A stretch of DNA of 64,000 bases from Planctomycetota bacterium (GTDB lineage Bacteria; Planctomycetota; UBA1135; UBA2386), in NCBI GenBank assembly GCA_947501605.1, contig CANMWZ010000010.1, forward strand, positions 32,001 to 96,000. The letters are read 5' to 3'. The position numbers are program-made. Shown here in pieces: positions 21,001 through 24,000 of the stretch (the stretch's first letter is position 1; each line of letters begins with the position of its first letter).

Positions 21001-24000
21001 TGAGCCTAGGGAAACCGCGCCGTCGGGGTGCAAGCTCCGGCGGCGCTCTTTATCGATGCTGGGCCCGAGCCATCGATTGCGGTGTTGGCCGGCAGCGCCC
21101 GCCTCGCAGTCGGGTGCGGAGCCGATCCAGCGGAGGTGAGGCCAGCCGTCGCCGGGCCAGCGTTCGAGTCGGCTGGCGGCAGAAACAACGCAGGCCGCTT
21201 GGTGGAACCAAGCGGCCTGCGTAAGTGCTCATGCCACCCTCCGGAGCAGTGGCCTCCGGGGACGGCTGCGTGTGAGCGATCGTCAGAGTTTGACGTCGAC
21301 GACCTGATCGACACGGAAATCAAAGCTGATCTCCTCGTCGATGTTGATCAGGCGGCCCGTGCCCTTGAACTCGTTGAAGATGATGGCGCCCGACAGCGAG
21401 CGGCCATCATCGAGAGACAGCTGCACCCAGTCGGCTTGACGGGCGTTCATCAGCAGGTCGTAGACCTCTTCCCGCGTGGGGCGAGTGACATTGCGCTCAG
21501 CCATTTTCATTCCTCTCTACTCCTTCCGTTTGCGCGGAACGTGTCCGCAGCGCTCGGGAAACCGCATTGGGACCGGCAAGGCCGGCTTGGAACAGTATCC
21601 GTGACCAGGATTCGAATCGGGCCGGATCTTGCCACAGGTTGTCCAACTCAGCAAGGTGCCGGAAGCCCCCAGCCATTTTGGAGACCTCGCGAACGCGCAC
21701 GATGGGCACGCCGGGAGCCGGGCTCGGGAAATCGAGGGCGTAGACCAAGCCGCAATGTACGCGACCGACTTCGGTCGCGTCGTCGTTGAGCAGGCCGCAA
21801 AAAGCCGGTTTGGGCACGTCGCGGACCTCGCCGTCGGCCGTCGCCGCCGCGGTGACGAAGGCGAGTTCTTCCTCGAGTTCCTGCAGCAGCGCGGCCGCGA
21901 AGAAGCTGTGAGACCCGGTCAGGGCTGCGGGCCTCGGGTTGATGTGGCCACCGATGCCGATCGAGAGCAGATTGTGTAGGCGCACCTCGGTCTGCGCCTG
22001 CTTTCGCTGCACGCAGAACACCTGCGCGGGGCGGCGCAGCACGCAGTACGGAATCAGCTGCTTCCATTCCGGGTTCTGCTCGGCCTCGGGGCGGCCGACG
22101 AAGAAACCACGCTGGACGAATTCGTCGAGCATTCCGGCCGTGTGGGCCCCTTGCTCGAGGAAACCCTGCGGCCAGTCACCGCCGAAAAAGTCGCGACGGG
22201 CGACAACGAAGACTTCTTCCACGGCGGCCATCGATGGGTCTCGCCTCTCAGCTCTTCGAGCCGTCGCCCGAGCCCCCATCGCCCGAGCTTCCGTCGCCCT
22301 TGGACTTGGGCTCGGCCTGCTTTTGCAGCAGGTTGCGGAGGCCCGCGAGCGAGGTCAACTCGCCGCGGTGGCCCTTGGTCTCCGCTGCTTCGCGACCGCT
22401 CTCGATCGTGAACACGCGCGGATCGTTGGCGCGGCCAGGACCGCGATCGTCGCGATCGCGCCCGCCACGGTCCCCGCGATCGTCGCGGCCGCCAAAGCGG
22501 CTACCCCGGCCGCCACCATCGCGGCCACCAAAGCGCCCGCCGCCGCCTTCGCGACCGCGTCCACCGTGGCGCTCACCGCCGCCCTTCTGGCCTTCTCCGA
22601 CGGCTGCCGGCGTTGCGCCTTCGACCGGCGCTTCGCCGCTCTCGAGCAGCATCCGATCCTTCTCGGGCTTGCCTTCCGGGGTCAGCGGCGCCGAACGGTT
22701 GCGGCCGCGGCGGCTTTCCGGGGCCCGCGCGGCGCGCGACAACACCGGTGTCTGCGGCTCGTCGCGGCGCGGGCGGCGCTCACGGCGATCGGCCGGGCGA
22801 TCGAGTTTCTCGCCGAGCGTGGGGGCCCGCCCTTCGAACACGTGACGCGGCGGGTGCATCGTCAGCGAGATCTTGCGCGTCTCCAGGTCAAGGTGCGCGA
22901 TCCAGACTTGCACGACCTCGCCGACGCGTAGCATTTGCTGCGGGTCGCGGAGCCGGTAGCCGGGGATCTGCGAGATGTGGATCAGCCCGTCCTGACCGAT
23001 GCCGAGATCGACGAACGCGCCGAACTCTGTGAGATTGGCGATCCGACCCCGCAGTTCGAGGTCGACTCGCAAGTCGGCCATCGTGTGCACGCCCTGGTTG
23101 GTCGTCGCGGTTAGTTCCCCGCGCGCGTCCGTGCTGGCGTTGCGCAGCGCATTCACGGTGTTCAGCACACGTTGACGGTCGACATCCGGGCCGGTGAAGG
23201 CATCAAGGTCCGCATCCCGCAGGTCCTTGCCGAACAGCTCTTGGACCGCGACGCCCTGCTTCTGCGCGATCGCGCGGGCGATGTCGTAGTCTTGCGGCAG
23301 CACCGGGCTGCGATCGAGTGGCTCGTCGCCGCCTTCGATGTGGAGGAAGCTGCTGAAGTTGGCGACGGTTGCTGCATCAAAACCCGCAACCTCGAGTAGC
23401 TGCGCCCGATTGCGGAAGCCGCCGATCTTCTTCTTGTGGTCCAGGATCGACTTGGCGCGCTCCGCGCCGACGCCGGGCACATAGGCCAACAGATCGAGAT
23501 CTGCCGTGTTCAGGTCGACCCCGACGGCGCCGACGCACGAGCTGACGACGGCGTCGAGCTCGCGCTCCAGCACGCCCTGGTGCACGTCATCCAGGGTCTG
23601 GCCGAGTCCCAGTGTGCGGAACTCCATCCCGAGCAATTCGCGCATCGGGTCCTGCAGCCGGCGGCCCAGTGAGATCGCAGTGCGCACGCCGACTTCGACG
23701 CCAGGCATCGCGCGGCGGCCGGTGGAGCTGGTCGCGAAGATCGCCGAAGCCGCTTCGTCGACCGGGATCAGCATCGGTAGCTCTTCTTTGGTGAGCGACT
23801 GGCGCAATGACTCGACGAGTTTCTCGGCGGCAATCTGGCGCTTGCCGTGCGGCAGTGCGATCGCGGCCGGCTTCTCGGTGCGGATCAAGGTGCAGAGTTC
23901 CGCGACCATCGCCGAGCGCTGTTCGTCGGTCTCGCTGTGCAGCGTCTTGTGCTGTGCGACCGAGCCATCTTCGCCGAGCAGGGCGAGCCACACCGTCTTG

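What a model noticed while it worked through the whole genome (the two positions that open the first line are those of the whole stretch)
21283..21510. New stand-alone Hfq/Sm-fold protein family, near-universal in an order that has no Hfq
A 75-aa protein with no Pfam match folds as helix plus five strands, the Sm/Hfq topology. It is single-copy, strongly conserved and always directly behind a YmaB-like gene, while no Hfq is detectable. It is a candidate RNA chaperone for this lineage, which also lacks the Sm-domain factor RimP.
Evidence so far: 15 of 16 order genomes, 43-85% identity; behind the YmaB-like gene in 10 of 10 loci. 0 of 10 members match Pfam at E 0.1. Model pLDDT 88. Among 48,161 chains the top natural matches include Hfq of S. 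aureus (Z 7.0, rmsd 2.4, 59 aligned), Synechocystis (7.0), M. jannaschii (6.8) and Caulobacter (6.7). Pfam Hfq in 0 of 5 order genomes, 5 of 14 controls. 90 representatives in a 1.84-billion library. Paper search 141 found nothing.
(Added by a program. Inside this text positions count along the whole contig: contig position 32,001 is position 1 of the stretch shown here. "Call 12" and the like, gene names such as g00115 and contig names such as C1 are that model's own, and its searches are not shown. The text may have been shortened before it was handed on; [...] marks where a part breaks off. The agent that wrote the report below was given it as the finding of a first reader that could run no searches.)

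Follow-up and report, generated by a model that had tools for sequence, protein, structure and literature searches.

The report
Unknown Sm-fold protein beside RNA-processing genes
A real, previously undescribed small protein family, present in almost every genome of one planctomycete class, has the barrel fold shared by Hfq and several proteins that do other jobs, lacks Hfq's RNA-binding residues, and usually sits right behind a Nudix hydrolase gene and the RNase P RNA gene.

Summary
The gene is real: 75 aa (or 73), found in 197 of 201 class genomes and nearly always single-copy, with no Pfam family. The fold is helix plus five strands, but the Hfq reading is not singled out: Hfq (Z 7.0) ties with WYL domains, CgeA and Rof, and a distant member matches XC5848 best. 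By an inferred register, eight Hfq RNA-surface residues (Q8, D9, I30, F39, Y55, K56, H57, T61) are kept in 0-5 of 64 members, and the core is mostly acidic. Lack of Hfq and RimP is phylum-wide (found in 10 and 28 of 301 genomes), so it does not show replacement. New here: outside the window's own family the gene lies behind rnpB-ymaB (36 of 38 and 67 of 69 loci); RnpA is still present (61 of 61). The family also occurs in four families outside the class, unlinked to ymaB, and as a C-terminal domain of longer proteins. Best reading: a housekeeping protein-docking adaptor in RNA or nucleotide turnover (0.40). An RNA chaperone with non-canonical sites remains possible (0.25). Ring formation is untested.

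The parts
21283..21510 (-). Gene for the 75-aa (73 aa from ATG 21504) helix + five-strand small beta-barrel protein
21497..22231 (-). YmaB/Tm1382-type Nudix hydrolase gene; its stop codon overlaps the start of the small gene
22248..24989 (-). tex gene (YqgF-like, HhH and S1 domains), the upstream neighbour in the window's own family; start inferred
   Evidence: Pfam; upstream in 21 of 28 own-family loci with 1.4 kb held
21188..21222 (-). Intrinsic-terminator-like hairpin about 60 nt behind the stop codon
   Evidence: 16-pair stem with U-rich tail; region folds at z -5.8, 0 of 200 shuffles as good

Best explanation
A vertically inherited housekeeping protein of the Sm/Rof/WYL type of small beta-barrel that works as a protein-docking adaptor rather than as an Hfq-type sRNA matchmaker. 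Shown: the fold, near-universal retention, position as last gene of an (ruvX-)rnpB-ymaB or tex-ymaB run closed by a terminator, and loss of Hfq's uridine pocket and distal-site residues. Inferred: the conserved outer face of strands 2-4 (A42, I44, N46, R53, I55, E60, S62, D64) binds a partner in RNA or nucleotide turnover; the first candidate is the adjacent YmaB-type Nudix hydrolase, which it would activate or recruit, as the Edc3/Scd6 LSm domains do for Dcp2. Whether it is a monomer or a ring is open.
For: Hfq Q8, D9, I30, F39, Y55, K56, H57, T61 kept in 1, 0, 0, 1, 0, 0, 5, 2 of 64 members (residue roles from PMC11770335). Core net charge negative in 44 of 64, -5 to -8 in the window's family, against +2 for E. 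coli Hfq and -5 for Rof. Structural ties include folds that bind proteins: Rof (PMC11018626) and cyanobacterial Hfq, which binds PilB rather than RNA (PMC10989914). Nearest named Atlas clusters are Rof-like, cyanobacterial Hfq_1 and DUF3247 at 0.86, leads only. The ymaB link survives the rearrangement that removed rnpB in the window's family: 30 of 30 loci. 36 of 37 carriers have a YmaB-like gene. Portable C-terminal use in 26 of 29 long representatives.
Against: No interaction was tested. Outside the class the gene is unlinked from ymaB (0 of 23 and 0 of 20 loci), and 91 of 127 genomes with a YmaB-like gene lack the family, so the link may be one inherited insertion. The register to Hfq is inferred from weak profile alignments (P about 0.05) and structural end-points, not from coordinates. 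R24 (Hfq R16) is kept in 25 of 36 order members and R37 in 45 of 64, R53 in 62%, so an RNA-binding surface is not excluded. Edc3 LSm scores only Z 5.2-5.5.
Confidence: 0.4

Rival explanations
1. A ring-forming RNA chaperone, functionally like Hfq, that uses a different RNA-binding surface (R24, R37, K49, R53 and N-terminal basic tails).
For: Hfq/Sm chains fill the Foldseek list and head the natural VIA rows (Z 7.0); compact loops; six of seven Hfq interface positions hydrophobic in 62-64 of 64; free C-terminus at strand 5 in 71 of 91 representatives; RNA-processing neighbours; no Pfam Hfq in any of 37 carriers.
Against: Pocket residues lost and core acidic; Foldseek E-values all above 0.001; monomeric E. 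coli Rof has hydrophobic residues at the same positions by my hand register on the sequence, so that test does not discriminate; Hfq is missing from 254 of 264 non-carriers too.
Confidence: 0.25
2. A Rof-like inhibitor or modulator of Rho.
For: Y17-D18 align with Rof Y13-D14 (probability 2.8%, P 0.016), the two residues essential for Rho binding; acidic like Rof; YaeO Z 6.2; Rho in 61 of 61 order genomes, two or more copies in 58.
Against: YD is present in only 16 of 64 members and E17 is not kept in the order; the Rho residue R88, needed for Rof binding, is H and Q in the two paralogues of this genome and varies widely in the order; no member matches Pfam ROF.
Confidence: 0.1
3. An accessory protein or maturation chaperone of RNase P RNA, a bacterial analogue of the Sm-like archaeal subunit Rpp29.
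For: rnpB lies upstream on the same strand, mostly about 1 kb away, in 36 of 38 and 67 of 69 loci and 38 of 40 metagenome loci; Rpp29 is described as Sm-like (PMC4919917).
Against: RnpA is present in 61 of 61; rnpB has moved away in the window's family; rnpB sits beside ymaB in 6 of 20 sister-lineage loci without this gene, so that block does not depend on it; no sixth strand as in Rpp29.
Confidence: 0.08
4. A stand-alone WYL-like sensor of single-stranded nucleic acid or nucleotides.
For: WYL domains of PafBC, BrxR, DriD and CapW score Z 5.7-6.9 with longer aligned lengths (64-66 residues) than Hfq, and 7.7 for a distant member.
Against: No Pfam WYL match in 52 members; no attached DNA-binding or WCX domain; no conserved arginines around strand 4 (the WYL motif is recalled).
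Confidence: 0.07

Closest known systems
Hfq (PF17209), and cyanobacterial Hfq (PF21979, PDB 3hfo)
   Same: Helix + five-strand barrel, Z 7.0, rmsd 2.2-2.3, 59-60 aligned; glycines G29 and G34, V22, L12 and V62 equivalents kept in 63, 64, 56, 56 and 43 of 64
   Different: No profile match; YKH motif replaced by x-[VIL]-[DE]; acidic core; ring unproven. Cyanobacterial Hfq is the precedent for this fold without RNA binding
Rof/YaeO (PF07073, PDB 6jie)
   Same: Same fold (Z 6.2), small, acidic, YD in the helix in part of the family
   Different: Rof is reported only from Pseudomonadota (PMC11018626 abstract); YD not family-wide; Rho docking residue not kept in this genome
WYL domain (PafBC, BrxR, DriD, CapW)
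   Same: Z 5.7-7.7 with the longest aligned lengths
   Different: No HTH or WCX partner, no profile match
XC5848 / DUF3247 (PDB 2e12)
   Same: Best natural match of a distant member (Z 8.1, rmsd 2.2, 68 aligned); 26% identity and Z 6.3 for the window's protein; Atlas neighbour at 0.86 and 0.82
   Different: Best Pfam E-value 0.13 in 1 of 64 members; function not established from what I saw (listing only)
Edc3/Scd6 LSm domain with Dcp2; archaeal Rpp29
   Same: Functional analogies: an Sm-fold unit next to a Nudix hydrolase, or next to RNase P RNA
   Different: Edc3 only Z 5.2-5.5; Rpp29 has extra strands; no sequence link tested

Membership tests
Hfq/Sm ring proteins | N-terminal helix + five-strand bent barrel | tested here: met
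   Two models, pLDDT 82.5 and 81.9; Z 7.0-7.5 to Hfq
Hfq/Sm ring proteins | Profile match to Pfam Hfq, Hfq_1 or LSM | tested here: not met
   None among all 19 families hit by 52 members at E up to 10; hhalign to a 6-sequence Hfq alignment P 0.054
Hfq/Sm ring proteins | Proximal-face residues Q8, D9, F39, Y55, K56, H57 and distal Y25, I30, T61 | tested here: not met
   Kept in 0-7 of 64 members; register inferred, not from coordinates
Hfq/Sm ring proteins | Rim arginines R16/R17 | tested here: inconclusive
   R16 equivalent in 25 of 36 order members and 0 of 28 outside; R17 in 12 of 64
Hfq/Sm ring proteins | Ring via strand 4 to strand 5' contacts | tested here: inconclusive
   Coevolution at effective depth 117 recovers intra-chain pairs but ranks 11 candidate inter-subunit pairs 110-1377 of 1653; hydrophobic interface positions kept but not discriminating
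Hfq/Sm ring proteins | RNA binding and annealing activity | not testable with these tools
   needs experiment
Rof/YaeO | Helix Y13/D14 (and E17) Rho contacts | tested here: inconclusive
   YD in the window's protein and 16 of 64 members; E17 equivalent M/L/Q/K in the order
Rof/YaeO | Pfam ROF match | tested here: not met
   0 of 52 members; the genome's only ROF hit is elsewhere at E 0.42
Rof/YaeO | Cognate Rho keeps R88 | tested here: not met
   H and Q in the two Rho paralogues of G000; some order members do keep R88
WYL domain | Fold | tested here: met
   Z 5.7-7.7, tied with Hfq
WYL domain | Pfam WYL match; HTH/WCX architecture (recalled) | tested here: not met
   0 of 52 members; 0 WYL in G000; 75-aa protein has no further domain
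Rpp29 | Sixth strand extending the barrel | tested here: not met
   Models end at strand 5; definition from bioRxiv 10.1101/140376 passage
XC5848/DUF3247 | Fold and profile match | tested here: inconclusive
   Z 8.1 and 6.3; Pfam E 0.13 in 1 of 64

The most novel reading that the evidence does not exclude
The rnpB-ymaB-Sm run encodes a bacterial RNA 5'-end module: the small Sm-fold protein is a dedicated cofactor that couples a Nudix hydrolase and/or RNase P RNA to 5'-end processing, a bacterial parallel to Edc3-Dcp2 decapping or to the Sm-like RNase P subunit Rpp29, in the phylum long discussed for eukaryote-like traits.
Probability: 0.12. Interest if true: 0.85.

Novelty: new variant of a known kind. 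Interest (0 to 1): 0.5.

Why it matters
A 73-residue protein kept in 100 of 101 good genomes of a whole planctomycete class, with no family model, is a likely core gene of unknown role and is easy to express and test. If it binds RNA it supplies the missing sRNA chaperone of part of a phylum that mostly lacks Hfq; if it binds the Nudix enzyme, RNase P or Rho it adds a new job for the Sm fold in bacteria. It is also a clean marker gene for the class.

Tried and rejected
Coevolution (385 unique sequences, effective depth 117) gave no strand 4-5' signal, but depth is too low to count against a ring; high-ranking pairs M21-E47, N46-K74, L31-R66, L20-R53 could not be classed as intra- or inter-chain without coordinates. 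Replacement of RnpA was rejected (61 of 61 have it). Replacement of Hfq or RimP by complementary distribution was rejected (chance overlap would be only about 1 and 3 genomes; kin are not independent). PDB sequence searches found nothing for the protein and two short chance hits for the profile. NCBIfam and PHROGs gave nothing near significance across members. No relatives in IMG/VR. Rfam found no RNA family in window 19000-26500. Rpp29 was not among the top 50 rows, which does not exclude it. The origin of the long C-terminal-domain proteins was not resolved: 20 cluster look-ups gave one taxon name (Oligoflexia), and searches returned no informative context. A Rof alignment could not be built, so Rof was compared as one sequence. 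Earlier findings of the scan: three look-ups, nothing.

Full report
Observation. The ORF at 21283-21510 on the minus strand encodes 75 residues; a second ATG six bases in gives the 73-residue length of most relatives, though the four closest clusters are called at 75. Codon-position GC (0.64/0.34/0.80) and 501 synonymous against 288 non-synonymous codon differences over 29 family loci show a real, constrained gene. A strong terminator-like hairpin follows at 21222-21188. Contigs from RNA libraries of three studies cover the gene or part of it in three of four runs laid (X1, X3, X5; X2 only reaches its flank); contigs show neither strand nor level, and DNA may be present. Named relatives are Planctomycetota.

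Distribution. The single protein finds 144 of 151 order genomes; a broader profile finds 197 of 201 class genomes, which hold the same ten families, and 100 of 101 high-quality ones. In a phylum sample 37 of 301 genomes carry it: all 18 of the order and 19 from families f26, f30, f68 and f93. Seven of the 144 have two matches, tandem in genus g71, and f68 has two paralogues throughout. The representative library gave 109 hits, a few of them spurious partial matches in very long proteins. Of 91 with a near-complete domain and under 900 aa, 29 are 140 aa or longer and 26 of these end in the domain; one is labelled Oligoflexia. No Pfam, NCBIfam or PHROGs family explains it (one search shows 25 of 33 families).

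Neighbourhood. Within the order the gene follows a YmaB/Tm1382-type Nudix gene in 69 of 70 loci (the exception is a second copy) and 79 of 80 further loci (the exception has 253 bases upstream). That enzyme keeps an intact-looking Nudix box; recombinant B. subtilis YmaB is reported to have dNTP pyrophosphohydrolase activity (PMC5960316, passages). A metagenome set gave 38 of 40. In the window's family tex takes that place and rnpB lies on another contig. Against over-reading: RnpA is present in 61 of 61 genomes; sister families keep rnpB beside ymaB, head to head, in 6 of 20 loci and have no copy of the small gene in any of the 20; there it sits opposite a myo-inositol-phosphate synthase gene and before a HEAT-repeat gene, or near queD and iscA. 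YmaB-like genes occur in 127 of 301 genomes, 91 of them without this family. The link is therefore one ancestral event, kept very faithfully.

Fold. The model has a helix at 13-23 and five strands (pLDDT 82.5, pTM 0.61). Foldseek lists mostly Hfq/Sm chains, none at E below 0.001. Among 48,161 representatives a designed SH3 barrel leads (Z 8.2), then Synechocystis and S. aureus Hfq 7.0, CgeA 6.9, PafBC 6.9, BrxR 6.8, DriD 6.7, XC5848 6.3, YaeO 6.2 (same picture). The tool treats differences under 1 as ties and Z 7-8 as common. A member from family f30 folds alike and ranks XC5848 8.1, PafBC 7.7, S. aureus Hfq 7.5. The Atlas's nearest named clusters are Rof-like, cyanobacterial Hfq and DUF3247, all under 0.9. 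So the protein is a helix-capped small beta-barrel; the fold does not name Hfq.

Residues. I placed E. coli Hfq on the family using hhalign for the first half (weak, P about 0.05) and the structural end-point for the second; coevolution supports the family's own strand registers (A42-I55 rank 1, G52-F65 rank 3, L33-V70 rank 16 of 1653). With residue roles from PMC11770335 (section 18 and passages), proximal Q8, D9, F39, Y55, K56, H57 are kept in 1, 0, 1, 0, 0, 5 of 64 members and distal Y25, I30, T61 in 7, 0, 2; G29, L32 and rim R16 are kept in 63, 21 and 25. Six of seven subunit-interface positions are hydrophobic in 62-64 of 64, but by hand register monomeric Rof shows the same. The core is net acidic in 44 of 64 members, although full-length charge has median 0 because of basic tails. 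What the family conserves instead is a face on strands 2-4 (A42, I44, N46, R53, I55, E60, S62, D64; face assignment inferred from alternation).

The replacement argument. Pfam Hfq matches 10 of 301 phylum genomes and RimP_N 28 of 301, none among the 37 carriers. Most non-carriers lack them too, so nothing specific follows.

Rof. Y17-D18 align to Rof Y13-D14, which are essential for Rho binding (PMC11018626, abstract, sections 7-8 and passages). But YD is in only 16 of 64 members, and the Rho arginine R88 needed for binding is H and Q in this genome's two Rho paralogues and variable across 34 order sequences.

Mechanism. I favour (0.40) a protein-docking adaptor in RNA or nucleotide turnover, first candidate partner the adjacent Nudix enzyme; precedents for Sm folds that bind proteins are Rof and cyanobacterial Hfq (PMC10989914, one passage). 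Shown are fold, conservation, gene order and loss of the Hfq pocket; partner, oligomer and activity are inferred. A non-canonical ring chaperone (0.25), Rho modulator (0.10), RNase P accessory (0.08) and WYL-like sensor (0.07) remain. No oligomer model could be obtained.

Novelty. Searches for Planctomycetes + Hfq + RNA chaperone, YmaB + Nudix, XC5848 and rnpB + Planctomycetes + gene order listed no paper on this family, judged from titles and abstract starts; the library lacks most subscription papers and I read no supplements. Also seen as passages: bioRxiv 10.1101/140376, PMC4919917, PMC3936774; PMC9228748 gave only reference-list lines. The roles of Edc3/Scd6 with Dcp2 and the WYL motif are recalled, apart from PDB titles. 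Verdict: a new family within a known fold class, with a strong RNA-processing neighbourhood and an unproven function; interest 0.5.

Noticed in passing
G000:C7:116696-116908 and G000:C3:249793-250023; order-wide: 58 of 61 order genomes have two or more Rho RNA-binding-domain matches; many copies have lost the usual S82/R87/R88/F89 residues of the primary RNA-binding site.
   Followed up: partly
window 20721-21282: 560-base gap between the histidine kinase gene and the small gene, with terminator-like hairpins on both strands (21017-21046 +, 21188-21222 -), no Rfam match, and separate RNA-library contigs at 20870-21022 and 21041-21388 in run X3; could hide a small RNA.
   Followed up: partly
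L237, L238, L244, L247, L248, L249: In families f68 and f30 rnpB lies head to head with ymaB (with ruvX beyond it in f68), inverted relative to the order studied here.
   Followed up: partly
L054:2974-3433 and L069:2992-3451: Tandem duplication of the small gene in genus g71; the two copies are only about 30% alike in appearance and could form a hetero-oligomer.
   Followed up: no
P0145, P0149, P0155, P0157, P0165, P0179, P0181, P0207, P0209, P0221: The domain ends many unrelated-looking proteins of 150-600 aa; P0209 has a second Sm-like repeat (weak LSM hit, E 0.013). One record is labelled Oligoflexia; the others are of unknown origin.
   Followed up: partly
L089, L091, L093, L097, L102, L103, L105, L107: Outside the order the gene has another conserved setting: divergent from myo-inositol-1-phosphate synthase and upstream of a roughly 680-aa HEAT-repeat protein.
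   Followed up: partly
L090:4879-7233 (similar in L092, L094): SIR2-like plus STAND NTPase gene conserved next to iscA and the second f68 paralogue.
   Followed up: no
L109-L117: Divergent Hfq-like proteins keeping a HAI-type strand 4-5 motif in a few other Planctomycetota families.
   Followed up: no
window 26323-32953: Memo-like protein, FHA-GAF-sigma54 activator and an ORF that reads like a Ser/Thr kinase in one run upstream of the tex operon.
   Followed up: no
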